DNA of 64,000 nucleotides from an uncultured Phycisphaeraceae bacterium. Lineage in GTDB: Bacteria; Planctomycetota; Phycisphaerae; Phycisphaerales; UBA1924. The translations under genes and the position numbers were made by a program. A model generated the notes under the pieces. It was not told where the DNA came from. It did not search any database and worked only from the letters and a program-made list of their open reading frames with translations. Below, piece after piece: positions 5,693 through 48,376 of the stretch (position 1 is its first letter; the number at the start of each line of letters is the position of its first letter). Location of the stretch: positions 2,315-66,314 of the forward strand of contig CAYGSG010000007.1 of assembly GCA_964352615.1 (NCBI GenBank), in the 5' to 3' direction.

Positions 5693-5721
5693 GCCCGCAC
5701 CGGAAGCGTGAAGCGATCGGT

Positions 5722-20042: not shown

Positions 20043-20297
20043 CTATTCCAAAGTGTCGCGATCAAGCCATGTTGAAGGGTCGGAAAGTAGTTGCCCCAAC
20101 ATGTACCGACAGGCGCCTAGTTCGGTCCTAAATGCTCTCTTGCCTTTCTCATGCCCACGCTCACTGTAATACACGCTCCAGCCGGCAGCTGAATGAGATA
20201 ACACATAACTTTCGCTGGGATGACCTCCTTTCAGTGAATAACTCGATGGGTCAATCATGTGCGATTCTAGTTGCTCAATGAGAACGTTTTTGTTCAA
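20043..20297 (-). CDS. candidate immunity protein for the adjacent TNT-type toxin
   Basis: 84-aa ORF whose TTG start overlaps the toxin stop (TTGA). An alternative ATG lies at 20258. It is small, acidic and cytoplasmic-looking (…GWSVYYSERGHEKGKRAF…), and the DNA is A/T-richer. Confidence 0.5.
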   Translation of the reverse strand: MNKNVLIEQLESHMIDPSSYSLKGGHPSESYVLSHSAAGWSVYYSERGHEKGKRAFRTELGACRYMLGQLLSDPSTWLDRDTLE

Positions 20298-34831: not shown

Positions 34832-36001
34832 ATGCTCTACTGGCTGTTTGATCTCTCGCGGAGCTGGCTCGACCAAGTCGGGCTGTACAGCGTGCTGGGC
34901 CTGCTCGACCAGATCGAGTTCCGCGCGTTGGGCGCTGCGGGCCTCGCGTTCGCGTTGGTGCTCGCGTTCGGTCCAAAGTCTATAAGGATGCTGCGCGCGC
35001 TCAAGGTGGGCGACACGGGCGAGACCGACGCCGCGGCACTCGGGCACGTCGCCAAGGGCAAGGCCAACACCCCCACGATGGGCGGCGTGCTGATCGTCGG
35101 CGCGATGCTCATCAGCACGCTGCTGCTCGCGGACCTCAGCGTACGCTGGGTGCAGCTCGGCCTGGTGCTCGTAGCGTGGCTGGCGGTCGTGGGCGGAGCG
35201 GACGACTACCTCAAGCTCACCGCGTCTCGCAGGGGTTCGGGCCGCCAGGGGCTTTACTCGTGGGAGAAGCTGGTCTTTCAGCTCGGCATCGGGATCATCA
35301 TCGGGTTCTTTGCGTATCGAGCCGGTGCTGTCGAGACCGGCCAGAGCCTCGCGCACGTGCTCAACCTGCCGTTCCAGAAGACGTACTCCACGCCCGGCCT
35401 TGAGCTGAGCGGCTCGGTGGTCGTGCTCTCGATGCCGGTGTTCGTGGTGCTTTCGGCGCTGATGGTCACGGGTATGTCCAACGCGGTGAACATCACCGAC
35501 GGCATGGACGGGCTGGCGTCGGGCATCGGTTCGATCATCGCGCTGGGCGTGCTGGTGCTCGCGCTGATCGCGGGCGAACAGGCCTGGGCGCAGCGGCTGC
35601 TCGTGCCGTATGTGCCCGGCACGGGCGAGCTATCGGTGCTCGCGGGCGCGATGGCTGGCGCGTGCCTGGGGTTCCTGTGGTTCAACTGCTCGCCCGCGCA
35701 GGTGTTCATGGGCGACACGGGTTCACTCGCTCTTGGCGGGCTGCTCGGGTACCTGGCTGTGGCGACCCGGCACGAGTACGTCGTGCTCATCATGAGCGGC
35801 GTGTACCTCGCCGAGATCGGATCGGTCGTGCTGCAAGTCGGCTACTTCAAGTCAACGGGCGGCAAACGCATCTTCCGGTGCGCGCCGTACCACCACCACC
35901 TGCACCTCGGCGGCTGGACCGAGCAGCAGGTCGTCGCCCGCGCGTGGATCTCCACCATCGTGCTTGTCGTCGTGGGCCTCGCGCTCATCAAGGTGCGATA
36001 G
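34832..36001 (+). CDS. mraY: phospho-N-acetylmuramoyl-pentapeptide transferase
   Basis: Polytopic membrane protein with …KGKANTPTMGGVLIV…, …NAVNITDGMDGLA…, …VFMGDTGSLALGG… and …APYHHHL…. The real start is ATG 34832; the track ORF begins inside murF. Confidence 0.9.
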   Translation: MLYWLFDLSRSWLDQVGLYSVLGLLDQIEFRALGAAGLAFALVLAFGPKSIRMLRALKVGDTGETDAAALGHVAKGKANTPTMGGVLIVGAMLISTLLLADLSVRWVQLGLVLVAWLAVVGGADDYLKLTASRRGSGRQGLYSWEKLVFQLGIGIIIGFFAYRAGAVETGQSLAHVLNLPFQKTYSTPGLELSGSVVVLSMPVFVVLSALMVTGMSNAVNITDGMDGLASGIGSIIALGVLVLALIAGEQAWAQRLLVPYVPGTGELSVLAGAMAGACLGFLWFNCSPAQVFMGDTGSLALGGLLGYLAVATRHEYVVLIMSGVYLAEIGSVVLQVGYFKSTGGKRIFRCAPYHHHLHLGGWTEQQVVARAWISTIVLVVVGLALIKVR

Positions 36002-37190
36002 GGCCGAGCAGCAGCATCGGTGAACGCAGCACCGGCGTGTCCTGCACCGGGCCGTTGCGGCCCTGGCGAACCTCGATCCAAAGCTCTGTTTCTCCCGGTT
36101 GCAGTTCCAGCGTCGCGGCGAGTTGTGCAGAACGCTGCTCGCCATCGAGCGACACCGCGGCCAGCTCGCGAGGCTCGCCCCGCCGCGCCACCATCAGCAC
36201 CACCTCGCACGCGCCCCACGGCGCCGCCGATGCGGGCAACTCCACGCCGCAAACAAACCCGGAGGCGCCCTCGGGCAGCGACCACTTCGAACGGGTCGGC
36301 CCGGCGAACGTCACATCACCCAGGCCCAGCGGATCATGCGCCATCGTGGGCGGCTCGACCCAACGAAGGCCCTCGCCTGCTTGGCTTTCGACCATCGAGA
36401 GCGACGCGAGACCGACCACTCGCTCGGGCGTCCAGAGCACGCCGACCAGATCGTCCGAGGTCACCAGCATCTCGCTGGCCGAGTCGGCATCGGTGAGCAG
36501 CACATCGCCCACAGCGTCGCTGACAATCGACGAGCACGCCAGCACGCTGCCATCGGCCAGCGCCACGAGCGTCGAGGCCGACCGCTTGGCCGGGCTCGCG
36601 AGCACCACGCCGCGCACGCGCTGGGGGTCGATCTCGCGGATGCCGGCGTCGGTTTCGATCTCGACCATCGGGCGGTAGGCGAGCACGAAACCCGTGAGTT
36701 CGTCGCCGTTTTCGAGGATGACCCGGTCGTCGATGGCTCCACGCATCTCGGCATGATCGAGCGGCTGGGCGGCGTCGGTCACAAGCGACCGCACATCATC
36801 AAGCCTGAACGCGAGCCGGTCGCGCAGCATGGTCTCCCAGCCGATGAAATCGTCGTCCGCGTGCGCCATGGCCCGGCCAAAGAGGACCCGGCCGTCGGTC
36901 AACGTCAGTTGGCCCACCGATTCCTCGCCGAGCGAGCCCGCGGGCGGGGGACGCAGCCTGGGCGACGCGGCGCGCAAGAGCAGCAGATCTTCCACCGAAA
37001 GCTCGATCGGCGTGCCCGTAGCGATGCCAAAGTGGACCGTGCTCGGCGAGAACAGCGGCCCATGAACCTCGCGCCGCGACAGGTCCGAGGTGGTCAGCGT
37101 AAAGAACTGCGCTGACGCGCCGCTTGCAGCAATCGCCCAAGGGGCGAGCCAGCAGACAGCCGAACGGATGGTCGAGTTGCTTTGCTTCAT
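35988..37190 (-). CDS. secreted hypothetical protein (last gene of the Bat-like operon)
   Basis: Signal peptide MKQSNSTIRSAVCWLAPWAIAASGASAQ. ATG 37190 overlaps the stop of the upstream gene (ATGA). The track ORF extension to 37586 is in that gene's coding region. No family was confidently recognised. Confidence 0.6.
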   Translation of the reverse strand: MKQSNSTIRSAVCWLAPWAIAASGASAQFFTLTTSDLSRREVHGPLFSPSTVHFGIATGTPIELSVEDLLLLRAASPRLRPPPAGSLGEESVGQLTLTDGRVLFGRAMAHADDDFIGWETMLRDRLAFRLDDVRSLVTDAAQPLDHAEMRGAIDDRVILENGDELTGFVLAYRPMVEIETDAGIREIDPQRVRGVVLASPAKRSASTLVALADGSVLACSSIVSDAVGDVLLTDADSASEMLVTSDDLVGVLWTPERVVGLASLSMVESQAGEGLRWVEPPTMAHDPLGLGDVTFAGPTRSKWSLPEGASGFVCGVELPASAAPWGACEVVLMVARRGEPRELAAVSLDGEQRSAQLAATLELQPGETELWIEVRQGRNGPVQDTPVLRSPMLLLGPIAP

Positions 37191-38197
37191 CGTTGGAAGA
37201 TCGGCAGGTACCTCTTGGGCATCTGAAGAATGAGCAGCGCCATCGCTGTGCCGTACGCAGGCCCGACCGAGCGGTCTTCCCATCGGCCGCTGGGCTCTTG
37301 CATCTCGAGCAAATGGCCCGCGATCAGCGGCCACCACTGCGACCAGTTTTGACCGCCGGAAAGGAACATCGCCTGCACCGCGTAGTAGTGCCCGTACCAC
37401 ACATGCGATCGGCTGGCCTCGCGGCCCGGCACAGCGGTCATCGAGAGGTATTGCAAGCCGCGATCGATCGCCCGGTCCTCGTAGATGCCCGCGTAGTAGA
37501 GGCTCGCCAGCCCCGCGGCGGACCTGGGCCAGCCGCTCTGCCCGCCATCGCGCTGGTAGCGGAACCCGCCGTCGGGGTTCTGGCATTCGCGCACATACTT
37601 GATCGCCGCGTCGATCACCTTCTTGTCGACCTCGAGCCCCGCGTTGCGCGCCGACCGCAGCCCCATGATCTGGCAGATCGTCACCGATACATCCGCATCA
37701 AACGGCACCGGGTTGTACCGCCAACCGCCCTCTTGATTCTGTGTTCGCTCGATCAGCCGAACCGCCCGGTCCAGCGCCTCATAGACGCGGTCGTCGAGCA
37801 CCGGATCGCCGCCGACTGTTCCGTAGACTTCGCCCAGAAACAGCGTGGCAAAGCCGTGGCCGTACATCGGGCCGTTGGCGGGCTCCGCAGCGATCAGCCC
37901 GTTCTCCGCCGTGTTGTCGAGGATGAACTCGAGGCCCTTTAAGACGATGTCGCCGTACTCGCCTCGTCCCGGCAGGTGCCCATCGGCCATGAATGCCAAG
38001 CACGCCAGCGAGGTCACCGCGACGTTGGGCCCGAACCGCCCGCCGCCGAACGAGCCGTCGGGCGACTGCTGCGTCGCCAGGTAGCGAAGGCCGTTAGCCG
38101 TCGCGTCGTCGATCGCCGGCGTCAGCTCACGTCCCGGCTGCGCCGAAGCGAGCGATGCAAACAACGCAGCACATAAAATCAGAAACCAACGCTTCAC
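37187..38197 (-). CDS. secreted prenyltransferase/squalene-oxidase (terpene-cyclase-like) repeat protein
   Basis: A signal peptide is followed by repeated …QQSPDGSFGG…, …QNQEGGWRY…, …QNPDGGFRYQ…, …QEPSGRWED… motifs typical of the alpha/alpha-toroid repeat. Confidence 0.7.
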   Translation of the reverse strand: MKRWFLILCAALFASLASAQPGRELTPAIDDATANGLRYLATQQSPDGSFGGGRFGPNVAVTSLACLAFMADGHLPGRGEYGDIVLKGLEFILDNTAENGLIAAEPANGPMYGHGFATLFLGEVYGTVGGDPVLDDRVYEALDRAVRLIERTQNQEGGWRYNPVPFDADVSVTICQIMGLRSARNAGLEVDKKVIDAAIKYVRECQNPDGGFRYQRDGGQSGWPRSAAGLASLYYAGIYEDRAIDRGLQYLSMTAVPGREASRSHVWYGHYYAVQAMFLSGGQNWSQWWPLIAGHLLEMQEPSGRWEDRSVGPAYGTAMALLILQMPKRYLPIFQR

Positions 38198-38889
38198 TCG
38201 GCATCCTCCGCGAGTCGCTCGAAGTACTTCTCGGTCAGCCCACGGTAGAGCGTGCTGAATCGCTCGTCCGCGCCCTGGAGCAGCGCATCACGCATACGAG
38301 CGGGCAGTGCGCCCCAACGCGCCAGATCGGCCGCAGCAGCCTCGGCAAGCTCGCCGTCCTGTCGGCCGGGCGGCTGCATCTCCTGCTGGTTGTCGCCCTG
38401 CTGCTGTTGCTGTTGTTCCTGCTGCTGCTGGTTGGGCTGGTTCTGTTGCTGCTGTTGCTGTTGTTGCTGCTGGCTCTGCGACTGCTGCTGTTGCTGCTGG
38501 GCGTTCTTGATGAGCACCTCAAGCTTGCGGATCGCTTCGGCCTGCATCCGCTGCGTATCGATGCCCGTGTCTTTCATGCCCGCGAGCCGCTGCGCCGAGT
38601 CGTTCATCAGCCGAACCGCGTCTTCGAACGTCTGCGCGACCGCTTCGCCATCGAGGGCACGCTCAAGCTCGCTCTCGATCGCATCAAGGGCGCCCGTCTC
38701 CGCGCCCTGACCGGGCCTCGCCGCGTCGGGCTCGACGCCCAGCAAAGCGTCAAGGTCGCCCAGGCCAGCCGGCGCGTCGGGATCCGTGGGTAGAGCAGGC
38801 TCGCTGGCGTCTTGGCCAAGAGCCGACGCCGCCATAACGCCGCCAACGAGCAGCGCCGACCAGCGGTTTATGTTGCATCGCGTTCGCAT
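38194..38889 (-). CDS. secreted polyglutamine-rich protein
   Basis: Signal peptide MRTRCNINRWSALLVGGVMAASALGQ. The central tract is QQQQQSQSQQQQQQQQQQNQPNQQQQEQQQQQQGDNQQ. The C-terminus reads …STLYRGLTEKYFERLAED. Confidence 0.6.
   Translation of the reverse strand: MRTRCNINRWSALLVGGVMAASALGQDASEPALPTDPDAPAGLGDLDALLGVEPDAARPGQGAETGALDAIESELERALDGEAVAQTFEDAVRLMNDSAQRLAGMKDTGIDTQRMQAEAIRKLEVLIKNAQQQQQQSQSQQQQQQQQQQNQPNQQQQEQQQQQQGDNQQEMQPPGRQDGELAEAAAADLARWGALPARMRDALLQGADERFSTLYRGLTEKYFERLAEDAE
38398..38500. repeat. (CTG/TTG)n trinucleotide tract encoding polyQ on the minus strand
   Basis: About 100 nt of almost uninterrupted CTG/TTG triplets, read directly from the sequence. Confidence 0.9.
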
Positions 38890-38892
38890 GGG

Positions 38893-41800
38893 TTACCCGC
38901 CTCCCCCGGGTTCGATCTCCGTGCCGCCGCCCGGCTGGGGCGTGGCCTGCTGGAGCTGTTCGATCAGTTGCTGGCCGCGCTCAGCGAGTTCGCGCTGAAG
39001 GTCCGCGAGTTGGTCAAGCTCGGTTGTCTCCGCGCCGTCTTCATCAGCGGCCCGTGTCCATTCCGCGACCTCGATCTGCATCGCACGCAGCAGCTTGAGT
39101 TCCGCAACCGGCGGCACAAGCGGCTGCTCGCCCCCGGCGCCTCCGCCACCGCCGCCGCTCTCCTGAGCGCCCTCGCCGAACTCGTCCTGCTCGGACCGAT
39201 CGTCCTTGAGTGCTTCAAGTATCGAACGCAGCAGCCGTGCCACCGTGGCTTGGCCGCGCTGCGCGCTGCGGTCGGCGTTGCCCCGGCGCAGGCGTTCGGC
39301 CGCGTCCGCGCTTGCCGAGTCCATGCGGTCAAGCGCGAGCGTGAACACCAGCGTGTCCTCGATGTCGGTGTTGGCCTCGCGCACCGCGGCCAGTTCCTCG
39401 GTCAACAAGAGTTGCTGCTCGCCGAGCCCCCGCACCTTGGCCCGTTCGCGGCGGGTGACTTCCTTGCCCACAAACACGTCCACCTCGCTCTGCAACACAA
39501 CCTGCCGTTCAAGCAGCTCGCGGTACGCCTCCTGCAACTCGGCGAGCCTGCGGTCCTGTTCGCGCTGCTGGGCTTCTTCTTCAAGCCGCTCGGCCTCGGC
39601 CTTGGCCTGCTCCAGCAGTTCAAGGCTTCTGGTCTCACGCTTGACCGCGACCTTGCCATTGCCGCTTCGCAGCGCCTGGACCGCCTTCGTCTGTTCGCCC
39701 TGCGCGCCCGACAGCATGGCGATCAGCTGGGCCACATCGCCCGGCGCCTCGCCCGCAAGCTGAATCACCGCCAGCGTGTTCGCATCCAGACGGATCATGC
39801 CCTCATCGAGCTGCTTGACTTCGTCGCCCTCGGCCTGCGCCAGCCGTTCAAGCTGGTCCTCCTGCTGAACGATCAGCGCATCGATCGATTCGATCAGGCT
39901 CGCCAGAATTCGGCGGAGCACCTCATCGCGGCGTTCGTCCGCGTTGTCAATCTCGTCGAGCATCTGCTCGAGCGCCTCGATCGCCTGCTGCTGGTTGCCG
40001 CCCGCGTCGGCGGTCTGGTTCTGCCCGAGGTTCTGCGCCGCGTCGTTCTGCCGTTGTTCAAGCTGCGAAGACCGGCCACGGCTCGCAGCGTCGCGCAACG
40101 CCGAAGCCTGCGCGGGGTCACGACCCGCGAGCTGGTCCGCACGCCGATCGAGTTCTTCGATCGCTTCGCGCCCCGCGTCCGCTGCCCGCTGCTGACGCTC
40201 CAAAATCCGCTCAAGCTCCGTGCGTTCGGCCTGCGTCAACTGCTCGATCGTTCGGCCCGTGGTGCGCTGGCCGAGTTGGGCGGTCTGCTCTGCGATCTCT
40301 CGCTGTTCTTCGAGCAATTGCTCGACGCCCCGCCGCGCCACCCATGCATCTTCGCCCCGGTCCAGAGCTGCAATCAAGTCGCTCAGGGCTGCACGCACTT
40401 CTTCCTGTGCTTGCTGGGCGCGCTCGGTCGCTTCGTCGCGAGCGTCCTGTTCGTCTTCGTTCTGCTGGGCATCGAGTTCCCGCTGCGCCTGCTCCGAGGC
40501 CTCGGCCGCCTCGCGTGCGATCGACTCCGCATCTTCGAGCAGCCCTGCCAGCGGGCTGTCGTCCATCTGGTTGCGGTCCAGCCGTTGACCGAGCCGATCG
40601 AGCGCCGCCTGCTGGGCCTCGATGCGCCGCGTCAGCGCTTCTTGCCTCGCCTCGGCCTTGGGATCAGCGGGTTCTTGGGCGACTTGGTCTCGCAGCTCAC
40701 GCTGCTGGCCTTCAAGCCGCATGGCCGCGCGCCGCACCGCCGACAGTTCGCCGCGAACCTGCGCCTCAAGTTCGCTCTCGTCGATGATTCGCAGCACGCG
40801 CTTGGCCGACCGCGCGGGCTTGCGCGGCTGGCCCTGATGATCGAACACATCGCTCGCCAGCGCCCACAGCCAAATCTCGTCGCCCGCCGTCGCTCCGAAG
40901 TCTTCAAGCGCCAGGGCGACCCGCGCCTGCCCGATCAGCCCGCCCGCGACCGATTCACGCGCGAGCAGCGTTTCATCGCCAACTGCCTCGGCCTCCGCTC
41001 CGGTCGAGCCTGCGGGCGATCTCGCCCGCTGTGCAACGAGCGACACCTGTTCGAGCCCTATGTCATCGCGCCCCTCGCCGAGTACATCGATGATCGCCGT
41101 GGCCAGCACCGCTTCATCCCTGCTGGGCTCGATGATCGCGATGGCTGGCGGTTCGTCCTGGATTACCTCAAGGCGGACCGTCGCCGCAGCGGCGGGCGTC
41201 AGACCGTGGGAATCCACGGGCATCACCGCGAGCACCACTTGTGCTTTCGGCTGAAGGGTCAGCGTCCATGTCGCGCCGTCATCGCTCGCCCTCATGGCAC
41301 CTGCGAGCGTCTCGTCACCGAGCTGTGTACGTGCGACCTCGGCCGCGTCCGCCCACCTAGGCAGCGGCTTGTTGAACCGCAGCGCCACCGTCACATCTGA
41401 ACCCGCGAGCACCGGCGAAGGCGCGCTCACCACGCGCGAGCCCGCATCAAGCTCGATGCCCTTGCCCGCGAGCACGCCTGTCACGCCCGCGCGCACCGCG
41501 TACTCGGGCGGCTCGGCCCGCACGCTCACGCCCACAAGCCTTGGCCTCGGCGCAAGCGTCAACTGCTGCACATCGGTCTGGTCGTCGGCGCTCACAAACC
41601 GGTACTCGAGCACCGCGTCGCGTTCGAGCATCGGGGTCTCGGTCAGGCGTTCGTACACCTCGCCGGTCGCTTCGCCGGATGTGGCCTCGCGCCGCTGGGG
41701 CGAGAGCGGCAGCGTGCGCCAGGGCTCGGCCTTGCCATCGCGCACGACCCGAAGCTTCACATCCACATCGCTCTGGCCCAGCGCCCGATTGGTCTTGGTC

Positions 41801-42489: not shown

Positions 42490-42625
42490 GGTCGTGCCTC
42501 CACGGGCTCCATCGGCGTTAGCCTGGCCCACCCTCCTGCAACGTCTACCACTCTCTATACGCCCCGCTGCGGCGAGTCGGCCCGCTGACAGTACCGTTAC
42601 CCATACAAAAACATGACATGATGAC

Positions 42626-44938
42626 TCACGCCAATCGCAGCAGCCGTCTGCCCGCCCACTCCGCGCCGAGCAGCACCACCAGCAGCACGAGCATCAAAGG
42701 CGTGTCCCAAAGCGTCTGGATCTTTGGCGGCGATGCCACCACCACCTCCCGGTTGGGGATCTCCTCCGCCAACGCGCCCAGTTCGCCGGTTGGCACCACG
42801 CGCCCGCCTGTCCGCTGAGCCAGGCTCGCCAGCAGCGCGTGGTCGGGCCGGGGGTCTCGGCGTTCGTCGTCCGCACGCACCACACGCACCTCTCGCTGCA
42901 ACCCCACGCCCGCGAGCAGCGGCGTCGCGGCCTTCAACTCGTACGTGCCCGGCTCCGACGGAATCCACGTTCCCAAAAACGTCGGGTCATCTTCGCCGAG
43001 CCTGCGCACGCTCACCCGCTGGGGCTCTGCATCCGGCTCGCCCGACCTCGCCAGATCGAACTCGACCGCGCCCTCGGCTGCATCGACGAGCGCTTGGTCG
43101 AGCAGCCGAAGCTCGATGCTCACCGCCCGGCCCGCGACCGGCTGGCGCGGGTCGATCCGCAGCGCCGCCTCGGTGCCCAATCTCGCCAAGCTCTGCCGGC
43201 CCGCCATGCGCACAATCGGCAGCCAGAACCGGTCGAACAGCAGGTCGCCCAAGCCGTAGCGCCATCGCCACGTCTCGTCCGTCGCAAGGTACACCACCCG
43301 GCCCGCGCCGTAGCGCATCGTCATCACCACCGGCCAGCCGCGCGCGTCCACGATCGAATCGCCCTGCGCAAACGCCAAGGGCACCGCAGCGGGCTTGAGC
43401 CGATCGACGGCGATCTTCTGCACACCCCAAAGCCGGCTCCAGCCCGTCAACGGATCAGACAACTGCGAGGGCCAGGGCTCGCTCGGCGTATCGCCCAGAC
43501 GCAGCACACCCAGCGCGTCCGAAGCATCCGCCCGAACGAGTGTCACCGCATCGTCCCACACCGGCGTTTGAGCCTGTGATGCAAGCGTAAACGGCAGCAG
43601 GGCCGCGAGCGGTGAACCGCGGTAGCCGTGGGGCGTCGCACGCGAGCCGCCGATCCATACAAGCCCCGCGCCGCGCGTCGCGATGTGATCGCGCAGTTGG
43701 TTCATCGTCTCTTCGCCGAGCAGTTCCGGACGCACATCGCCCAGCACCACCACGTCGATATCCGCCCATTCCTCTGGCGAGTTCGGCAGCTGCGCGATCG
43801 CCACATTGCCTTCCTGCGTGTACCGCCTGCGGGCCGCCAGCAGCAGCGACGACGACGTGATCGAATCCTCACGCAGCAACAAGTTTTTGAGATACCGGTG
43901 CTCCCAGCGAGGCGTGCCATCGAGGTACACCACGCGCAGCGGCTCGTCGAGCACCTCCACCGTGAGTTCCTGCGTGTTGTTCTCCGCGACCAGATCGCCC
44001 TCGCCCGCGTCGATCTCGACACGCCACCGCTGCGCGCCGGGCCGATCGGGCGTCGCCAGCAGCGTCAGTTCTACTGAGCCGCCATCGACGCTGATCGCTC
44101 GTTCGTCGAGCACCCGGCCTGTCAGTTCATCGATGAGCCTCGCCACCGCCGGCGTCGCCTCGCCCGCGTCAGCCACCTGATCGATGCGCACCTGCACCGG
44201 CACCGCGTCGTCCACGAACGCTCTGGCCGCAGCGGTCGCCGTTACCGCAAGGTCGCGCGTCGTGCCCGTCGCGCCCAGCGCCACCGTGAACACCGGCACG
44301 CCTTTAGCACGAAGCCGGTCCCACGAATCGGCGCTCAGCGCCGAAGACGACCGCCCATCGCTCAAGACCACGATGCCCGCAAGCGACCGGGCAGCACCGC
44401 GGTCCAGCGCCTCATCGAGCGCTGCTTCAAGGTCCGTGCGCACGCCCGCCGCATCGCCGAGCGTCACGCCTTGGTCGCTCGCGGCAAGATCGAACGCCCC
44501 GTCGGCAAAGCCCAGCCACACAAGCCGTGAACGCTCGGCCCGCTGCGACCACTGGGGCCATGCGGCCCGAAGCGCCTCGCGAAGCTGCTCGTTGCGCGTC
44601 GCGCCATCGGGACCGTCGGCGGCTTCCATCGAAGCCGACCGGTCCGCGAGCACCATGATCCAGTCCGGTTCGACCCGGCGGGAACTCTCGATCAGGGCCG
44701 GGCCGCTGAGCATCACCAGCACCAACACGAGCGTCACGCCCCGCACGCACCCGAGCACCACGCGCCATCGGCGAGCCATCGGAAGCCGGCGGTACACCCA
44801 CCACGCCACGCCCGCAGCGCCCGCGATCAGCACCACCCATAGCCAGCTTGGCCAGGGCCGCTGCCAGCCGAACCGCACACCTTCGACGCCGAAACGCACC
44901 GCATCGAGCCCGAGCAAGGTGTTGAGCAGGTCGTTCAT
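42626..44938 (-). CDS. membrane vWA-domain protein (BatB-like, with a large C-terminal extension)
   Basis: N-terminal TM pair. MIDAS-like VLADRSASM. Later …VVYLDGTPRWEHRYLKNLL… resembles the amidotransferase-like domain seen in long Bat-type proteins. The start overlaps the upstream stop (ATGA). Confidence 0.7.
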   Translation of the reverse strand: MNDLLNTLLGLDAVRFGVEGVRFGWQRPWPSWLWVVLIAGAAGVAWWVYRRLPMARRWRVVLGCVRGVTLVLVLVMLSGPALIESSRRVEPDWIMVLADRSASMEAADGPDGATRNEQLREALRAAWPQWSQRAERSRLVWLGFADGAFDLAASDQGVTLGDAAGVRTDLEAALDEALDRGAARSLAGIVVLSDGRSSSALSADSWDRLRAKGVPVFTVALGATGTTRDLAVTATAAARAFVDDAVPVQVRIDQVADAGEATPAVARLIDELTGRVLDERAISVDGGSVELTLLATPDRPGAQRWRVEIDAGEGDLVAENNTQELTVEVLDEPLRVVYLDGTPRWEHRYLKNLLLREDSITSSSLLLAARRRYTQEGNVAIAQLPNSPEEWADIDVVVLGDVRPELLGEETMNQLRDHIATRGAGLVWIGGSRATPHGYRGSPLAALLPFTLASQAQTPVWDDAVTLVRADASDALGVLRLGDTPSEPWPSQLSDPLTGWSRLWGVQKIAVDRLKPAAVPLAFAQGDSIVDARGWPVVMTMRYGAGRVVYLATDETWRWRYGLGDLLFDRFWLPIVRMAGRQSLARLGTEAALRIDPRQPVAGRAVSIELRLLDQALVDAAEGAVEFDLARSGEPDAEPQRVSVRRLGEDDPTFLGTWIPSEPGTYELKAATPLLAGVGLQREVRVVRADDERRDPRPDHALLASLAQRTGGRVVPTGELGALAEEIPNREVVVASPPKIQTLWDTPLMLVLLVVLLGAEWAGRRLLRLA

Positions 44939-47121
44939 GCGCGCGCGCCCCGTCCCGTGTTCACCGCCATCGGCCTCAGCTCAGCATGACTAAACCGCCT
45001 CGCGAGCAGCGCCTCCGCAACCAGTGCAGCCAACAGCAGCACGATGGCCGGCAGCGCCCAGCCCGCGTCGGTTCGAGCGGCTCGCGCGTCGGCAGCCTCG
45101 CTGGCTTGTTCATCGCCCAATACGCCGGGCCTTCGGCCTGTCTGCGACTCGAACCACGCGAGCACTTCCTCGGTCGACCGCACCCGCGCTCGGCCCGCGT
45201 CGGCATCCGGGTTCACCACCGCGACACCTGTCGCGGCGCCCTGCGCATCGATCGCGTCCCACACGCCCGCGAACCGCGCTGCCTCACCCGACTCGACCGT
45301 GATCCGCTCGCGTCCCGGCGAGCGAAGCTCCTGCGTTCCCGATGGCGCCGCTGGCTCGCGCCCCGCGACCGAGACCGCGCGCGGGTTGGCGGCGTCGATG
45401 CCCTGCCGCACAAGTTCTTGCACCAACGGCACCATGAGCCCGCGCGCCGGAAGATCCGTCCATTCAAGGTCCAAAGCCGAGGCCATCAGCACCACGAGCC
45501 CGCGCGTTGCTTCGCCCCGGCCCGCCACCACCATCGGCGCGCCGTCACTCAGGCTCAGCACCGTCTCGCCCTCGCCCGCTGCGAGTTCAAGCCTTCGGCG
45601 AACCGGGATAGAACCCGCGATCTCCGCGAGTTCCGGTTCGAGCAGCTTGAGCAACTCGCCCACCGGCACCGGGCTGATTGTTAGCGCTACCTCGCTCGCT
45701 GGGCCCGCCGACCAGCCAAGGCCCAGCGTCTGGCTGAGCGCATCGGGCCACACCGGCGTGCCGCGCTCGTCGGCATCGGGCGTGACCACCAACAGCCCGC
45801 CGCGCGAAACAAATTCACCAAGACGCGTCCATCCTGCCGCCGACACCCGCGCCGGCTCAAGCACGAACAGCGCCGAAAGGTCCGACAAACGCTCGCGTTC
45901 GATGCTCGTGGTCGGCACGTCTCGCAGCTCGATGCCGGTTTCGCGCCCGCCCGGGACCATCGCCAGCCGCACCCACTCGCTGGGCCCGTAGTCGCGCACG
46001 CTCGTCGGCCGATCGAACCCGCCCGGGCCTGCGATCCCGATGCGCAGCGACGTGCGCACCTGCACCGCCGCGTAGCGAACATCGTCACCCGGCAGCTCGT
46101 CGCCATCAATCTCGACCCGCAGCGCGCCCCACCGGCTGCCAGTAGAGGCATCGATCGCCGAGCGATCGAACGCGATCAGCGCTTGTGCCGTGGTCTGGCC
46201 CGGCGACCAACGCACCATCGCCTCGCCCAGCGGCGGGGACCAATTCGCGGGGCCGGTGCGGCCACGCAGCACCACGCGCGATACCGCAGCGCTCCCGCCC
46301 GCGCGGGCAAGGTCAATCGCCACCCGGTCGCCGCCCACGTCATCGCTCGATGTCACGCCACGCACCGGCGCCACAGCGGTGATGCCCACCGTGGCCGGTT
46401 CGTCCGCCCTTGGCGGCGAGAGCAGGAATTCAACACCCGTTTGCTCGGGCCAATCGGGCAACGCCGATTCGCCTCGAGCAGTACCTTCAAGCCAGTCGCT
46501 AAACACCGCGACCACCACCGGGCCTTGCGAGGCGTCTTCGAGCCCAAGCTCGGCCTGCACCGCTGCGATGTCGTCGATCACCAGTTCAACCGCGCCCTTC
46601 ACGTCCGCGCGGGCATCGGTCGGCTCCATCGAATCGAGCAGCCCAGCGACCGCTGCCAGATCCGTCGAGGGCGCGAGCACGATGCCCCGCGCTGGCTGGC
46701 TCATCGAGATCAGCCCCACCCGGTCGCCGCGCATCGGATCGAGCGAACCGATCAACTCGCGTGCCGCCGCTGCGTGCCTGCGCACACCCGAGAGCCCGCT
46801 TGCGTCGGTCGCCGTCGAACTCAGGCTGTCGTCGACCAGCACATACACCGTCCGCGTGCCCGGCCCATCGAGCCCGGCTGCCAGCAGCGCCGGCCGGCCC
46901 AGCGCAACCGCAAGCAGCAGCAGCGCCAGACACCGCAGCGCCAGCAGCAGCCACCGCTCGATCAGCAGCCGCTTGCGATTGCGCTTGTACGCCTCCACCA
47001 AGAACCGCATCGCCGCCCACCGCACCGGCTTGCGCCGACGCCGCATGAGCAGGTGAATCAAGATCGGCACCGCGATGCACGCGATCGCGCCAGTGAACAG
47101 CGCGGGGTTCAGCATCCCCAT
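44935..47121 (-). CDS. BatA N-terminal (double-TM) domain + vWA protein
   Basis: MGMLNPALFTGAIACIAVPILIHLLMRRRRKPVRWAAMRFL…LLLALRCLALLLLAVALGRP is the aerotolerance-regulator N-terminal signature. The MIDAS motif is VLVDDSLSS. The track ORF start at 47244 overlaps the DUF58 gene. Confidence 0.75.
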   Translation of the reverse strand: MGMLNPALFTGAIACIAVPILIHLLMRRRRKPVRWAAMRFLVEAYKRNRKRLLIERWLLLALRCLALLLLAVALGRPALLAAGLDGPGTRTVYVLVDDSLSSTATDASGLSGVRRHAAAARELIGSLDPMRGDRVGLISMSQPARGIVLAPSTDLAAVAGLLDSMEPTDARADVKGAVELVIDDIAAVQAELGLEDASQGPVVVAVFSDWLEGTARGESALPDWPEQTGVEFLLSPPRADEPATVGITAVAPVRGVTSSDDVGGDRVAIDLARAGGSAAVSRVVLRGRTGPANWSPPLGEAMVRWSPGQTTAQALIAFDRSAIDASTGSRWGALRVEIDGDELPGDDVRYAAVQVRTSLRIGIAGPGGFDRPTSVRDYGPSEWVRLAMVPGGRETGIELRDVPTTSIERERLSDLSALFVLEPARVSAAGWTRLGEFVSRGGLLVVTPDADERGTPVWPDALSQTLGLGWSAGPASEVALTISPVPVGELLKLLEPELAEIAGSIPVRRRLELAAGEGETVLSLSDGAPMVVAGRGEATRGLVVLMASALDLEWTDLPARGLMVPLVQELVRQGIDAANPRAVSVAGREPAAPSGTQELRSPGRERITVESGEAARFAGVWDAIDAQGAATGVAVVNPDADAGRARVRSTEEVLAWFESQTGRRPGVLGDEQASEAADARAARTDAGWALPAIVLLLAALVAEALLARRFSHAELRPMAVNTGRGARA

Positions 47122-47137
47122 CAGTGCACCGCCCCTC

Positions 47138-48196
47138 TCACGATCGGCTCCGCTTGCGGATGAACGCGTTGCGGTGCGCCACAAAGTGCGCGAGCGGCGG
47201 CCCAAGCCAGTCGTGCGTATCCACCAGCTCGTAATCAAAACCAAGGCCCACCACCGATCGCTCGACCGCGGCGCGGTGCTCCTCGAAGGCCTTCAGGTAC
47301 GCGTCGCGGATCGCTCTTGGGTCAAGCCTGAGCATCGGCTCGCCTTCGAGCCCCTCAAACGGCGCCACACCGCTCAGATCAAACTCGCGCTCGGCACGGT
47401 CCACCACCTGGAACGCGATCACGTCGTGCCCACGGTGCCGCAGCCGACCCATCGCAGCCCGGATCGGTTCGGGGTCCTCAAAGAAGTCTCCGATGATCGC
47501 GATCAGGCACCGGTTGCTCACGCCCGCGAGCACCTGGTCCACCGCCCGGGGCAGGTTCGTCTGCGCATCGACCGCCTGCATCGACAGCGTCTCGACGATC
47601 TGCTTCCAGGTGGTCTGTGCGCTCGACCGACGAACCGCGGCCAGAATCTCGTTGGCGTAGACGTACAGCCCCGCCCGGTCGCCCTGGCGAAGCGTGATGT
47701 AGCTCAGCGCCGCCGCCAGCGCCGTCGCGTGGTCGAACTTGCTCCAGTACGTCCGCCCATCGGGGCTCTCGTCCCGGCCGGCGCCCGAGGCATCGTGAAA
47801 GCTCCGCGAGCCGAAGTCCATCGAGCCCGAAGCATCCACCAGCGTGATCAGGTCGAGGTTCGTCTCCTGCTGGTACTGCTTGAGGTGCAGCTTGTCGCTG
47901 CGGGCGTACACCTTCCAGTCGAGGTGGCGGATGTCATCGCCCGCGACGTACGGCCGGTGCTGGGCGAACTCCACGCTAAAGCCCTGATAGGGCGAACGGT
48001 GCTGGCCGCTGGTCACGCCCTCGATGATCATCTTCGCGCGCAGCTCAAAGGTCTTGAGCCTCGCCAGCGTCTGCGGATGCAGGTACAGCGTCGCGTCCTG
48101 CCCCTTGCCCCCCTTGCCGCTCTTGCTCCCCTGGCCCGTGCGCGCAGCGCTCGCGTCTGCTGCGGTGCCGGGCTGTGGGCTGGGGGGTGCGTCCAT
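47138..48196 (-). CDS. DUF58 domain protein
   Basis: …GQHRSPYQGFSVEFAQHRPYVAGDDIRHLDWKVYARSDKLHLKQYQQE…LVDASGSM… is the DUF58 core. Confidence 0.85.
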   Translation of the reverse strand: MDAPPSPQPGTAADASAARTGQGSKSGKGGKGQDATLYLHPQTLARLKTFELRAKMIIEGVTSGQHRSPYQGFSVEFAQHRPYVAGDDIRHLDWKVYARSDKLHLKQYQQETNLDLITLVDASGSMDFGSRSFHDASGAGRDESPDGRTYWSKFDHATALAAALSYITLRQGDRAGLYVYANEILAAVRRSSAQTTWKQIVETLSMQAVDAQTNLPRAVDQVLAGVSNRCLIAIIGDFFEDPEPIRAAMGRLRHRGHDVIAFQVVDRAEREFDLSGVAPFEGLEGEPMLRLDPRAIRDAYLKAFEEHRAAVERSVVGLGFDYELVDTHDWLGPPLAHFVAHRNAFIRKRSRS

Positions 48197-48270
48197 CGTT
48201 CCATACTACGGCGAACCGACCAGCAAGCTGCACCCACCGGCAGCTACCCATCAAAGTCGCACGATGCGCC

Positions 48271-48325
48271 AAAAATGACCGCCGCCCACACAAGGGGGCG
48301 GGGGTACTGCCGAAAGGCGGCGGTC
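48271..48325 (-). terminator. terminator-like hairpin after the EF-hand gene
   Basis: The minus strand reads GACCGCCGCC…(30-nt loop with internal pairing)…GGCGGCGGUC followed by AUUUUU. It lies between the EF-hand stop (48377) and the DUF58 start (48196). Confidence 0.4.
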
Positions 48326-48376
48326 GCGGACTCTCATCCCATGTCTGGTTGTCGGCTCTGTTCGAGCCTGAGTGGC

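What the first reader, a model, noticed from the sequence alone, without database searches (positions are those of the whole stretch)
35988..48196. 12.2-kb seven-gene Bat-like operon with no MoxR ATPase and four non-canonical distal genes
Seven co-directional minus-strand genes are packed with ATGA overlaps or gaps of 16 nt or less; the only larger gap is 136 nt (42490-42625). In order they are a DUF58 protein, a BatA_N + vWA protein (DDSLS MIDAS), a second TM-vWA protein (DRSAS MIDAS), a 1198-aa TM + coiled-coil protein, a signal-peptide polyQ protein, a secreted prenyltransferase/terpene-cyclase-repeat protein, and a 400-aa secreted protein. The first three are the recognisable core of MoxR-DUF58-vWA (Bacteroides aerotolerance, Bat) modules. 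However, the AAA+ MoxR gene that canonically sits directly before DUF58 is missing. The upstream neighbour is an EF-hand protein followed by a terminator-like hairpin. No TPR BatC/BatD-type genes are present. Instead the vWA pair is coupled to a giant coiled-coil anchor and three exported proteins. This looks like an envelope-associated machine of unknown function and is my best candidate for an undescribed system in the window.
Basis: partly seen in the sequence, partly recalled or inferred. Interest (0 to 1): 0.7.

Follow-up and report, generated by a model that had tools for sequence, protein, structure and literature searches.

The report
Planctomycete Bat-like envelope operon, MoxR unlinked
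The seven genes are real and form a conserved cell-envelope gene cluster of Phycisphaerae bacteria, but it is a lineage-specific version of the widespread, poorly understood MoxR-DUF58-BatA-vWA-DUF4175 module whose ATPase gene has merely moved elsewhere, not a wholly new kind of system.

Summary
Seven tightly packed minus-strand genes lie at 35988-48196, with the stated domains, and the 64-kb window has no MoxR. The interpretation needs revising.

- **MoxR:** it lies upstream of DUF58 (3-2,700 nt) in 14 of 59 Phycisphaerae relatives, 7 of them within 60 nt. It is also adjacent in every homologous cluster I found outside the class where the upstream DNA could be read. Its absence here is therefore a clade-level unlinking.
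- **G4 (the "giant coiled-coil anchor"):** it is a divergent DUF4175 protein (hhalign 99.8%). The polyQ gene G5 is its detached C-terminal piece, fused in frame in three relatives. DUF4175 also follows MoxR-DUF58-BatA in Gemmatirosa (Gemmatimonadota) and an unassigned metagenome contig.
- **G3:** it is homologous to the fourth gene of an alphaproteobacterial (Shinella) MoxR-DUF58-BatA four-gene cluster.
- **G6 and G7:** only these two look Planctomycetota-specific. G6 is an exported alpha/alpha toroid, 58-84% identical across the class. G7 combines beta-repeats with a CBM51-like lectin domain. G6 co-occurs with the core in three different gene orders.

The distal genes follow the core in 55 of 61 loci. 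The most likely function is an inner-membrane-anchored, periplasm-spanning, glycan-binding scaffold for envelope integrity, serviced by MoxR-DUF58; this is inferred, not shown. I rate it a new variant of a known kind, of moderate interest.

The parts
47138..48196 (-). G1: DUF58 protein (352 aa). It has a vWA-like fold, no TM segment or signal peptide, and is predicted cytoplasmic. It is the usual partner or adaptor of MoxR.
   Evidence: Pfam DUF58, E 1.4e-42. The DxSxS motif (DASGS) is invariant in 71 of 71 orthologues, and no hydrophobic segment was found. The translation matches a public gene call exactly.
44935..47121 (-). G2: BatA-type membrane protein (728 aa). It has an N-terminal double-TM hairpin with an Arg/Lys-rich loop, a vWA domain with a degenerate MIDAS, a DUF4350-like domain and a C-terminal TM anchor.
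   Evidence: BatA, E 5e-17; VWA_2, E 6e-07; DUF4350, E 3.7e-06. TIGR02226, E 4e-21. TM segments at 8-26, 57-75 and 689-707; the third MIDAS Ser is Ala in 46 of 77 orthologues.
42626..44938 (-). G3: doubly anchored membrane protein (770 aa). It combines a vWA domain carrying a complete, invariant MIDAS with a GATase1-like/DUF7408 region. It is homologous to the fourth gene of the Shinella (alphaproteobacterial) MoxR-DUF58-BatA-X cluster.
   Evidence: D99, S101, S103, T168 and D194 are invariant. Weak DUF7408 match; relatives carry PF07090 or PF24157. The G3 HMM hits the Shinella ORF that has the GATase1_like/DUF7408 matches at E 9.8e-20, and the Gemmatirosa ORF at E 5e-79.
42490..42625 (-). 136-nt spacer between G3 and G4. 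It is the likely boundary between two sub-modules, G1-G3 and G4-G7. A weak hairpin followed by a T run overlaps the G3 stop codon.
   Evidence: In most of the relatives read this is the longest junction of the cluster; it varies from about 20 to 618 nt. Hairpin at 42633-42614. In five loci with at least 7.5 kb downstream, unrelated genes follow G3 directly.
38893..42489 (-). G4: divergent DUF4175 protein (1198 aa). It has a TM hairpin, a helical loop of about 70 residues predicted cytoplasmic, a third TM, three Ig/MG-like beta-sandwich domains (about residues 208-569), an alpha-helical stalk of about 600 residues, a Gly-rich stretch and a conserved AELKLLRxMQ helix.
   Evidence: No Pfam hit on the protein alone. 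The orthologue profile hits PF13779 proteins at E 1.9e-30. hhalign gives 99.8% and 99.6%. AF2 model of residues 1-570 has pLDDT 89.5. Foldseek top hits are alpha-2-macroglobulin/C3 MG arrays and generic Ig arrays, all with low TM-scores.
38194..38889 (-). G5: detached C-terminal module of the DUF4175-like protein (231 aa). It has its own signal-peptide-like N-terminus, an acidic region, a polyQ stretch and a conserved C-terminal motif, WGxLPxxxRDxL...YxxLTExY[YF]xRLAE.
   Evidence: It is fused in frame to G4 in L026, L035 and L083 and forms a single chain in P0174/L094. The G5 HMM hits the C-terminus of P0174 at E 2.9e-5 with Z set to 1e6, and hits no shuffled decoys. It hits the 182-aa ORF of the SH-PL62 plasmid at E 2.8e-15.
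37187..38197 (-). G6: exported single-domain alpha/alpha-toroid protein (336 aa) with four QxxDG[GS][WF] repeats. It is among the most conserved genes of the cluster.
   Evidence: SQHop_cyclase_C, E 2e-09; Prenyltrans, E 4e-06. The profile matches squalene-hopene cyclase repeats in the PDB at E 1e-10. It is 58-84% identical across Phycisphaerae, with 21 invariant columns. The family has 950 clusters (at 50% identity) at E<=1e-30. It co-occurs with the core in L087 and L094.
35988..37190 (-). G7: exported all-beta protein (400 aa) with N-terminal small beta-repeats and a C-terminal CBM51/NPCBM-like lectin domain.
   Evidence: No Pfam hit for the window protein. Four of 42 orthologues hit NPCBM, best E 4.6e-06. 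hhalign against the plasmid NPCBM protein gives 96%, E 4.7e-09, over 296 columns. AF2 model has pLDDT 76.6 and pTM 0.79. Foldseek matches CBM51 structure 2vmh with TMt 0.62.
48282..48301 (-). Terminator-like hairpin between the EF-hand gene and G1. It probably marks the 5' limit of the transcription unit.
   Evidence: CCGCCC-loop-GGGCGG followed by CGGTCATTTTT. Terminator-like sites over the whole region are not enriched above shuffles (9 found, 6.4 +/- 2.5 expected).

Best explanation
**Identity (well supported).** This is the Phycisphaerae form of a widespread inner-membrane and periplasmic module built around a cytoplasmic MoxR AAA+ ATPase and its DUF58 (vWA-type) partner. In the window's clade, moxR has been separated from the cluster and is presumably encoded elsewhere. 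The core is MoxR, DUF58 (G1), a BatA-type protein (G2), a vWA plus GATase1-like protein (G3) and a DUF4175 protein. Here the DUF4175 protein is split into G4 and G5. Planctomycetota add two exported proteins: an alpha/alpha toroid (G6) and a CBM51-like lectin protein (G7).

**Mechanism (inferred).**
- G2 and G3 each sit in the inner membrane through an N-terminal TM hairpin and a C-terminal TM. They expose their vWA and amidotransferase-like domains to the periplasm.
- G4 crosses the membrane three times and leaves a helical loop of about 70 residues in the cytoplasm. It projects three Ig-like domains and a long helical stalk into the periplasm, and G5 completes its C-terminal end.
- G6 and G7 dock on this scaffold and bind an envelope glycan, either peptidoglycan or an outer polysaccharide.
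- From the cytoplasm, MoxR with DUF58 assembles or remodels the complex through the short cytoplasmic loops.
- The outcome is envelope integrity and shape maintenance, as reported for the Rhizobium cmdA-D (RL3499-RL3502) operon.
For: **Shown here**
- The domain content is established.
- The G1-G7 gene order recurs throughout the Phycisphaerae loci examined. G4, G6 and G7 are present in 55 of the 61 loci that have at least 7.5 kb downstream of G3.
- MoxR lies directly upstream in 7 of 59 relatives and nearby in 7 more.
- G4 is a DUF4175 relative.
- G4 and G5 are fused in three relatives and form a single chain in L094.
- BatA and DUF4175 overlap by 4 nt in the MoxR-DUF58-BatA-DUF4175 cluster of L091. 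The same set occurs in Gemmatirosa.
- G3 has a homologue in the Shinella MoxR-DUF58-BatA_N/DUF4159-GATase1_like cluster.
- Within Planctomycetota, G6 travels with the core in three different gene orders: the Phycisphaerae order, the SH-PL62 plasmid (G6-MoxR-G1-G2-G3-G4N-G4C-G5-NPCBM) and L094 (G1-G2-G4/5-G3-G6).
- MIDAS motifs are invariant in G1 and G3.
- The G4 model shows a TM hairpin, a helical loop, a third TM and three beta-sandwiches.
- G7 has a CBM51-like fold.

**From the literature**
- The BatA-like protein BB0173 is an inner-membrane protein with a periplasmic vWA domain, and cmdA-D mutants have envelope and morphology defects (PMC5700661, citing Vanderlinde 2011).
- vWA proteins act as co-chaperones or adaptors of MoxR-clade AAA+ ATPases (PMC3495828).
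Against: - No experiment bears on any of these proteins.
- Topology rests on hydrophobicity and the positive-inside rule only.
- No MoxR can be shown for this genome. The contig is 67.7 kb, the window covers 64 kb of it, and 45 of 59 relatives have none within 4 kb or more.
- No interaction between cytoplasmic DUF58/MoxR and the membrane proteins has been demonstrated in any homologous system.
- G1-G3 occur without G4-G7 in five loci. DUF4175 modules also occur without MoxR, DUF58 or BatA nearby (L090, L092, L096).
- The ligand of G6 and G7 is unknown. The extreme conservation of G6 could mean it is an enzyme rather than a binder.
- I did not verify that the Shinella cluster is the orthologue of RL3499-RL3502. 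That link rests on the description in PMC5700661 and on my memory of the Vanderlinde paper, which was not held.
Confidence: 0.6

Rival explanations
1. Two independent units lie side by side. G1-G3 is a Bat/Cmd-like membrane vWA module. G4-G7 is a separate DUF4175-based periplasmic module. On this view their adjacency in Phycisphaerae is inherited synteny without a shared function.
For: - The G3-G4 spacer is the longest junction of the cluster in the window and in most relatives. It carries a weak hairpin and T run.
- In five loci with at least 7.5 kb downstream, G3 is followed directly by unrelated genes such as TerC, ClpB, KsgA/MutS and PMT_2.
- DUF4159-DUF4175-TPR-hypothetical clusters exist without MoxR, DUF58 or BatA nearby (L090, L092, L096).
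Against: - G4, G6 and G7 follow G1-G3 in 55 of 61 loci at only 40-49% G3 identity.
- The same components stay together after rearrangement in the SH-PL62 plasmid and in L094, where G4/5 sits between G2 and G3.
- BatA and DUF4175 overlap by 4 nt in L091.
- DUF4175 again follows BatA in Gemmatirosa.
Confidence: 0.2
2. G6 is a periplasmic enzyme of the prenyltransferase or terpene-cyclase superfamily. The cluster would then process or insert an isoprenoid or other lipid (for example a hopanoid-like lipid) into the envelope, and the remaining proteins would form its membrane platform.
For: - G6 carries QW-type repeats and matches squalene-hopene cyclase.
- It is 58-84% identical where G3 is 40-76% identical. 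It also has invariant or nearly invariant His, Cys, Asp and Arg columns, as expected for an active or metal site.
- It belongs to a large family.
Against: - G6 is a single toroid of about 310 residues, not the two-domain class II cyclase architecture.
- No DxDD motif is visible on direct reading of the sequence.
- It has a signal peptide.
- PDB matches are confined to the repeat units.
- No isoprenoid biosynthesis genes are in the cluster or among the genes I annotated upstream of it.
Confidence: 0.1
3. This is a true Bat (Bacteroides aerotolerance) operon whose role is tolerance of oxygen or oxidative stress.
For: DUF58 and BatA_N are the signature domains of the Bat locus. B. fragilis Bat mutants lose aerotolerance (Tang 1999, as cited in PMC5700661).
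Against: - No BatC or BatE TPR protein and no BatD domain protein is present.
- G3 is of the GATase1-like type, not a BatB-type protein.
- The Bat function itself is unproven. PMC5700661 states that the proposed role of Bat proteins in countering oxidative damage has not been directly proven in either Bacteroides or Leptospira.
Confidence: 0.08
4. This is a MoxR-vWA type conflict or anti-phage defence system.
For: Some MoxR-vWA systems are conflict systems (PMC7159879, from the title and abstract only).
Against: - No PADLOC model matches any of the seven proteins.
- The cluster is inherited vertically at a fixed chromosomal position, next to mraY in 23 of 56 loci.
- It is present in hundreds of species.
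- It shows no sign of mobility in the window.
Confidence: 0.02

Closest known systems
cmdA-cmdD (RL3499-RL3502) operon of Rhizobium leguminosarum: MoxR, DUF58, BatA_N-type membrane protein, fourth membrane protein. I examined the Shinella sp. PSBB067 cluster (L088) as a stand-in.
   Same: - DUF58 is followed by a BatA_N double-TM protein and then by a G3 homologue that has the GATase1_like/DUF7408 matches.
- The proteins have an inner-membrane and periplasmic location.
- The reported phenotype is loss of envelope integrity and altered cell shape (PMC5700661, citing Vanderlinde 2011). I adopt this as the likely function.
   Different: - MoxR is not linked in the window.
- The third gene carries VWA_2 plus a DUF4350-like domain instead of DUF4159.
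- Four further genes follow: a split DUF4175, a toroid protein and a lectin-like protein.
- I did not test orthology of the Shinella cluster to RL3499-RL3502.
MoxR-DUF58-BatA-DUF4175 clusters with a G3-type protein and a TPR protein, as in the Gemmatirosa kalamazoonensis 1.1-Mb plasmid (L089) and metagenome contig L091
   Same: They contain the same five families: MoxR, DUF58, BatA+VWA_2, G3-type vWA/GATase1-like and DUF4175. BatA and DUF4175 are translationally coupled in L091.
   Different: - They include a TPR/Peptidase_MA_2 protein, and L091 also has DUF4159. Both are absent from the window.
- They lack G6 and G7.
- Their DUF4175 is a single chain.
- Their MoxR is adjacent.
BatI (Bacteroides aerotolerance) locus and its spirochaete homologues (Borrelia bb0170-bb0176, Leptospira)
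   Same: DUF58 and BatA_N/vWA membrane proteins are present. BB0173 is an inner-membrane protein with a periplasmic vWA domain (PMC5700661).
   Different: The window has no BatC, BatD or BatE (TPR, BatD domain, SH3) and no adjacent MoxR. Its distal genes are different.
DUF4175 (PF13779; TIGR02302 as I recall it), including the N-terminal region of the Acinetobacter baumannii division protein AdvA
   Same: G4 aligns with PF13779 proteins over 465-728 columns at 99.6-99.8% probability. My recollection is that TIGR02302 describes N-terminal TM helices, Gln/Gly-rich low complexity and a split into two tandem ORFs in one species; this was not checked here.
   Different: G4 alone falls below Pfam detection. 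It is split from its C-terminal module, G5. AdvA shares only the short N-terminal DUF4175 and TM part (PMC7481262), and no functional transfer is justified.
Planctomyces sp. SH-PL62 plasmid pPL62-3 cluster (NZ_CP011276)
   Same: All eight components are present: a G6-like toroid, MoxR, DUF58, BatA, a G3-like VWA protein, G4 (as two ORFs), a G5-like ORF and an NPCBM protein homologous to G7.
   Different: - The gene order differs, with G6 lying upstream of MoxR.
- G4 is split at a different point.
- The G7 relative is 912 aa and has an extra DUF1583-like N-terminal part.
- The cluster is plasmid-borne.
- DUF58 appears to be split across reading frames.

Membership tests
BatI (Bacteroides aerotolerance) operon | MoxR AAA+ ATPase gene immediately upstream of DUF58 | tested here: not met
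   tblastn of a Phycisphaerae MoxR against the whole window gives a best E of 0.16. The feature is met in 7 of 59 relatives, and MoxR is nearby in 7 more.
BatI (Bacteroides aerotolerance) operon | DUF58 protein and a BatA protein (BatA_N plus vWA) | tested here: met
   PF01882, E 1.4e-42; PF07584, E 5e-17; VWA_2, E 6e-07.
BatI (Bacteroides aerotolerance) operon | BatC/BatE TPR proteins and a BatD-domain protein | tested here: not met
   None of the seven proteins has a TPR, BatD or SH3 match.
MoxR-DUF58-BatA_N-GATase1_like four-gene cluster (cmdA-D type) | Fourth gene: a membrane protein with a GATase1_like/DUF7408 region, homologous to G3 | tested here: met
   The G3 HMM hits the Shinella ORF at E 9.8e-20. 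That ORF has below-cutoff Pfam matches to PF07090 and PF24157. G3 itself has a weak PF24157 match, and relatives carry PF07090 or PF24157.
MoxR-DUF58-BatA_N-GATase1_like four-gene cluster (cmdA-D type) | Third gene: BatA_N combined with a DUF4159 C-terminal domain | tested here: not met
   G2 has BatA_N but then VWA_2 and a DUF4350-like domain, with no DUF4159. The Shinella protein has DUF4159 at E 2e-52.
MoxR-DUF58-BatA_N-GATase1_like four-gene cluster (cmdA-D type) | Envelope-integrity and morphology phenotype | not testable with these tools
   Known only from the literature on R. leguminosarum (PMC5700661, citing Vanderlinde 2011).
DUF4175 (PF13779) | Match of the protein itself to the Pfam model above its threshold | tested here: not met
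   G4 has no family at E<=0.01. Only 2 of 39 orthologues match, best E 3.9e-05.
DUF4175 (PF13779) | Profile-level homology over most of the length, including the N-terminal TM region | tested here: met
   The orthologue profile hits PF13779 proteins at E 1.9e-30 and 2.6e-08. hhalign gives 99.8% over 728 columns and 99.6% over 465 columns.
Class II terpene cyclases / protein prenyltransferase beta subunits | Alpha/alpha-toroid repeats (QW-type motifs) | tested here: met
   PF13243, E 2e-09; PF00432, E 4e-06. PDB profile hits to squalene-hopene cyclase at E 1e-10.
Class II terpene cyclases / protein prenyltransferase beta subunits | Catalytic architecture: a two-domain cyclase with a DxDD motif, or a Zn site paired with an alpha subunit | tested here: not met
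   G6 is a single domain of about 310 residues behind a signal peptide. No DxDD motif is seen on reading the sequence. NCBIfam cyclase scores of 21-33 bits fall far below cut-offs of 322-851 bits. A Zn site could not be tested.
CBM51 / NPCBM-NEW2 (PF08305) | Sequence match to the family model | tested here: inconclusive
   The window's G7 has no match. Four of 42 orthologues match, best E 4.6e-06. hhalign against a bona fide NPCBM protein gives 96%, E 4.7e-09.
CBM51 / NPCBM-NEW2 (PF08305) | Beta-sandwich fold superposable on solved CBM51 structures | tested here: met
   Foldseek matches 2vmh with TMt 0.62 over 159 columns, and 7js4/7jrl at E 3e-07 to 5e-06. The model has pLDDT 76.6. Carbohydrate binding was not tested.
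Known anti-phage defence systems (PADLOC) | Any component model match | tested here: not met
   No families matched any of the seven proteins.

The most novel reading that the evidence does not exclude
G1-G7, with an unlinked MoxR, form a Planctomycetota-specific energy-transducing trans-envelope tether. The cytoplasmic AAA+ motor and DUF58 would act on the cytoplasmic loop of the split DUF4175 stalk. This would change the reach or grip of a periplasmic head made of the G5 cap, the G6 toroid and the G7 lectin on peptidoglycan or the outer layer. Such a device would be functionally comparable to Tol-Pal but built from unrelated parts, and relevant to the unusual envelope and division biology of this phylum.
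Probability: 0.1. Interest if true: 0.7.

Novelty: new variant of a known kind. Interest (0 to 1): 0.35.

Why it matters
MoxR-DUF58-BatA modules are among the most widespread bacterial gene clusters that still lack a mechanism. Three results from this window are useful for that problem.

- **A larger conserved core.** The core includes a DUF4175 stalk protein and a vWA/GATase1-like protein in at least two phyla, Planctomycetota and Gemmatimonadota. An alphaproteobacterium carries the four-gene core without an adjacent DUF4175.
- **Candidate ligand-binding partners.** Planctomycetota add two exported, probably ligand-binding proteins: a very strongly conserved alpha/alpha toroid and a CBM51-like lectin. 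These give a concrete handle on what the module touches in the envelope.
- **MoxR unlinking is tolerated.** The ATPase gene can be separated from the cluster without loss of the rest of the cluster. This should be considered when such clusters are classified by the presence of MoxR.

For planctomycete cell biology, the cluster is a conserved and testable envelope candidate. It sits tail-to-tail with mraY in many genomes.

Tried and rejected
- **Defence system:** no PADLOC hits.
- **MoxR hidden elsewhere in the window:** none found. Pfam annotation of the ten ORFs between 49959 and 63916 shows an oxidoreductase, Wzy_C, a solute-binding protein, an M20 peptidase, a two-component system and glycosyltransferases.
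- **Solved relatives of G7:** the profile search of the PDB found none. For G4 only coiled-coil noise appeared.
- **G4 against plasmid records:** tblastn gave no match.
- **Structure prediction from the locus-derived alignment (A3):** I used protein-search hits instead, so the G7 model rests on only 7 sequences.
- **Single-sequence homologue search for G7:** only 7 proteins returned.
- **G6 as a thioester (TED) domain paired with the MG-like domains of G4:** no CGEQ motif is present, and the QW repeats point to the cyclase/prenyltransferase branch. The Foldseek MG hits have TM-scores of 0.24 or less against the query. This stays a lead, not a finding.
- **P0172 (L095):** it has an unrelated gene context and was set aside as a likely low-complexity or coiled-coil match.
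- **Vanderlinde 2011 paper:** not held in the library, so it is cited only through PMC5700661.
- **Sigma-70 promoter scan:** no sites found. This is uninformative for this phylum.
- **Literature search for a described Planctomycetota version:** nothing specific found.

Full report
**1. The observation**

The window has about 67% G+C. It comes from a member of the Phycisphaerae (Planctomycetota). All close protein relatives that carry a name are from Phycisphaerales, Phycisphaeraceae or Planctomycetota metagenome-assembled genomes.

Seven co-directional minus-strand ORFs occupy 35988-48196. With the start codons I chose, all seven translations match gene products already in the public collection exactly.

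Pfam and NCBIfam confirm most of the domain calls:
- G1 is DUF58.
- G2 has BatA_N/TIGR02226 plus VWA_2 and a weak DUF4350 match.
- G6 has prenyltransferase / squalene-hopene cyclase repeats.
- The upstream neighbour has EF-hand repeats plus a dockerin domain.
- G3 gets only a weak DUF7408 match.
- G4 and G7 get nothing.
- G5 gets only low-complexity matches.

A tblastn search with a Phycisphaerae MoxR finds nothing in the 64 kb (best E 0.16). A G+C-rich hairpin with a T run follows the EF-hand gene.

**2. Conservation within Phycisphaerae**

A homologue search with G3 found a full-length family. A scan of one genome per species found more than 563 encoding loci, of which the best 80 were fetched; all are Phycisphaerae-like. 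I searched the window's proteins against these loci and five more from exact look-ups.

- **Distal genes.** Of 61 loci with at least 7.5 kb downstream of G3, 55 have G4, G6 and G7 in the same order. Five have none, and one lacks a detectable G7.
- **Junctions.** G2 and G3 almost always overlap by 4 nt. The G3-G4 spacer (about 20-618 nt) is the longest junction in most loci.
- **Loci without distal genes.** There, G3 is followed at once by unrelated housekeeping genes such as TerC, ClpB, KsgA/MutS and a PMT_2 protein. G1-G3 and G4-G7 therefore behave as two sub-modules that usually, but not always, travel together.
- **Rates of change.** Identity to the window in the orthologue alignments is 58-84% for G6, 32-68% for G4 and 22-57% for G7. 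For G1, tblastn best segments are 50-93% identical. G6 and G1 are thus the most conserved genes.

**3. MoxR**

Of 59 loci with at least 4 kb upstream of DUF58, MoxR lies 3-41 nt upstream in 7 and 360-2,700 nt upstream in 7 more. In L003 a CsrA-receiver protein, a histidine kinase and a response regulator are inserted between them. The other 45 loci have no MoxR upstream.

Clustering by G3 similarity places the MoxR-linked loci in three groups distant from the window. The window's own group has no MoxR within 6 kb or more. That group includes L093 (92% G4 identity), L001 (76% G3 identity) and L006 (68% G3 identity). Neighbouring groups are the same. Many of these unlinked loci instead end tail-to-tail with mraY, which is true of 23 of 56 loci overall.

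Outside the class, MoxR is adjacent to DUF58 in every homologous cluster where the upstream DNA could be read (section 4). Linkage is therefore the ancestral state, and the window's clade has lost it. The MIDAS motif of DUF58 is invariant in all 71 orthologues, whether linked or not. This fits a MoxR partner encoded elsewhere. I could not check that, because the contig is only 67.7 kb.

**4. What the "non-canonical" genes are**

*G4.* A profile of 39 orthologues hits proteins carrying PF13779 (DUF4175) at E 1.9e-30 and 2.6e-08. hhalign gives 99.8% probability over 728 columns and 99.6% over 465 columns. One of these proteins lies in the cluster GATase1_like protein - hypothetical - TPR/Peptidase_MA_2 - DUF4159 - MoxR - DUF58 - BatA+VWA_2 - DUF4175, where the last two genes overlap by 4 nt. 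The Gemmatirosa kalamazoonensis megaplasmid has G3-like - TPR - MoxR - DUF58 - BatA - DUF4175-like.

The AlphaFold2 model of G4 residues 1-570 has pLDDT 89.5. It shows:
- a TM helical hairpin;
- a helical loop of about 70 residues;
- a third TM helix;
- three beta-sandwich domains.

Foldseek's best matches are the MG-domain arrays of alpha-2-macroglobulin and C3, and generic Ig arrays. Their TM-scores are low, so I read them only as "tandem Ig/MG-like". The remaining ~600 residues are helical low-complexity sequence. They end in a Gly-rich stretch and a conserved AELKLLRxMQ helix.

*G5.* It is fused in frame to G4 in L026, L035 and L083. It is part of a single 1249-aa chain in a distant Planctomycetes genome (P0174/L094). 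The G5 HMM matches the C-terminus of that chain at E 2.9e-5 (Z set to 1e6) and matches no shuffled decoy. The C-terminal Y..L.E.Y[YF]..L motif can also be seen by eye at the ends of the other DUF4175-like proteins. G4 plus G5 therefore make one split DUF4175-like protein.

*G3.* Its HMM hits the ORF that follows MoxR - DUF58 - BatA_N/DUF4159 in Shinella (Rhizobiaceae) at E 9.8e-20. That ORF has below-cutoff Pfam matches to GATase1_like and DUF7408. This arrangement matches the description of the R. leguminosarum cmdA-D (RL3499-RL3502) operon in PMC5700661. I did not test orthology. G3's full MIDAS (D99, S101, S103, T168, D194) is invariant. In contrast, G2's DDSLS motif is degenerate in most orthologues.

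*G6.* It is a signal-peptide protein with one alpha/alpha toroid and four QxxDG[GS][WF] repeats. Its PDB matches are limited to the repeats of squalene-hopene cyclase and related enzymes. No DxDD motif is visible, and NCBIfam cyclase scores are far below their cut-offs. Its family is large: 950 clusters (at 50% identity) at E<=1e-30.

*G7.* The model (pLDDT 76.6, pTM 0.79, from only 7 sequences) is all-beta. Foldseek finds CBM51 modules, including 2vmh at TMt 0.62. Four of 42 orthologues hit Pfam NPCBM/NEW2. hhalign links the family to the C-terminal 320 residues of an annotated NPCBM protein at 96% probability.

**5. Co-occurrence of G5-G7 with the core beyond Phycisphaerae**

Three arrangements within Planctomycetota keep G6 together with the core:
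- Phycisphaerae: (MoxR)-G1-G2-G3-G4-G5-G6-G7.
- Plasmid pPL62-3 of Planctomyces sp. SH-PL62 (class Planctomycetia): G6-like - MoxR (spanning the record origin) - DUF58 - BatA - G3-like VWA - G4 N-half - G4 C-half - G5-like - NPCBM protein.
- L094, a distant Planctomycetes MAG: G1 - G2 - G4/5 - G3 - G6.

Conservation of the gene set through rearrangement is good evidence of functional coupling. I saw no G5, G6 or G7 relatives in the Gemmatimonadota, alphaproteobacterial or DUF4159-DUF4175-TPR loci. That sample is small.

**6. Mechanism**

What is shown is the anatomy. What follows is inferred.

- **Topology.** G1 has no hydrophobic segment, and MoxR, its usual partner, is a soluble AAA+ ATPase; I take both to be cytoplasmic. 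By hydrophobicity and the positive-inside rule, G2 and G3 have an N-terminal TM hairpin with a short Arg/Lys-rich cytoplasmic loop, a large periplasmic body and a C-terminal TM anchor. The BatA-like protein BB0173 has this orientation experimentally (PMC5700661).
- **G4.** It would leave residues ~88-160 in the cytoplasm and project its Ig-like domains and stalk into the periplasm.
- **Exported proteins.** G5, G6 and G7 have signal-peptide-like N-termini.
- **Role of the vWA partner.** In MoxR-clade systems the vWA partner acts as an adaptor or co-chaperone (PMC3495828).

I therefore favour a periplasm-spanning scaffold. It would be anchored by G2, G3 and G4, and capped by G5 with the toroid and lectin proteins, which bind an envelope glycan. 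MoxR-DUF58 would assemble or remodel it from the cytoplasmic side. The physiological role would be envelope integrity and shape, as for cmdA-D.

I put about 0.85 on the identity part and about 0.35 on the mechanism.

**7. Rivals**

- Two independent neighbouring modules: 0.2.
- G6 as a periplasmic isoprenoid or lipid enzyme: 0.1.
- A true aerotolerance operon: 0.08.
- A defence system: 0.02. PADLOC was negative, and inheritance is vertical at a fixed position.

**8. Novelty and verdict**

I found no paper that describes the Planctomycetota cluster. The families concerned are annotated only as hypothetical, "VWA domain-containing" or "prenyltransferase/squalene oxidase repeat-containing".

Its core belongs to a known, if mechanistically obscure, kind. 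What remains new is:
- the G6 and G7 accessory pair;
- the split of DUF4175 into G4 and G5;
- the tolerated unlinking of MoxR.

I rate it a new variant of a known kind, with interest 0.35.

Noticed in passing
window 48377-49492 (-); also L001, L006, L008, L045, L053, L056, L093: A secreted EF-hand-repeat protein with a C-terminal dockerin domain (XopAW-like by NCBIfam) lies 100-330 nt upstream of DUF58, on the same strand. This holds for the window and at least seven relatives, all from groups that lack an adjacent MoxR. A calcium-binding periplasmic protein next to MIDAS-bearing vWA proteins could be functionally linked. In the window, however, a terminator-like hairpin separates them.
   Followed up: partly
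window 35988-36001; 23 of 56 related loci: The 3' ends of G7 and the convergent mraY gene (the murE-murF-mraY cluster on the + strand) overlap by 14 nt. The tail-to-tail G7/mraY arrangement, within 600 nt, is conserved in 23 of 56 loci. It appears only in groups without a linked MoxR.
   Followed up: partly
L026 12544-16866, L035 12885-17177, L083 12569-16846; L094 3408-7157: G4 and G5 are one continuous reading frame in three Phycisphaerae genomes. They also form a single 1249-aa protein in a distant Planctomycetes MAG. In L045 the apparent fusion runs through masked bases and is unreliable.
   Followed up: yes
L015, L022, L068, L080, L071 (and probably L020, L030, L041): In these genomes DUF58-BatA-G3 is followed directly by unrelated housekeeping genes. 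I could not determine whether G4-G7 are elsewhere in those genomes or lost.
   Followed up: partly
L090 5051-12466, L092 9154-17297, L096 9258-16571: A different recurrent module has the order DUF4159 - DUF4175-like - TPR protein - a 430-530-aa protein with no family. MoxR, DUF58 and BatA are not nearby, and the module lies downstream of secDF in two of the three loci.
   Followed up: no
L003 3738-6344: In a complete 3.9-Mb Phycisphaerae genome, three genes are inserted between MoxR and DUF58: a CsrA-receiver fusion, an ETR1_N-type histidine kinase and a single-domain response regulator. They may regulate the cluster.
   Followed up: no
window 38812-41400 (+), 47075-49471 (+), 36099-37115 (+): Long ORFs of 338-862 aa run antisense to G4, to G1 and the EF-hand gene, and to G7. 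Real database gene calls occupy the opposite strand, so these ORFs are most likely by-products of the high G+C content and not genes.
   Followed up: partly
window 2001-6000 and 20001-22000: Two stretches have clearly lower G+C (0.56-0.58, against 0.62-0.70 elsewhere). No confident ORF was picked in parts of them (about 3.7-5.4 kb and 20-21.8 kb) by the codon-position G+C criterion. They were not examined.
   Followed up: no
window 37187-38197 (G6), alignment A4: G6 orthologues end in an almost invariant C-terminal sequence, ILQMPKRYLPIFQ[KR]. They also have invariant His114 and His265 and nearly invariant Cys175 and Cys205. This suggests a metal or active site, or a fixed docking peptide.
   Followed up: no
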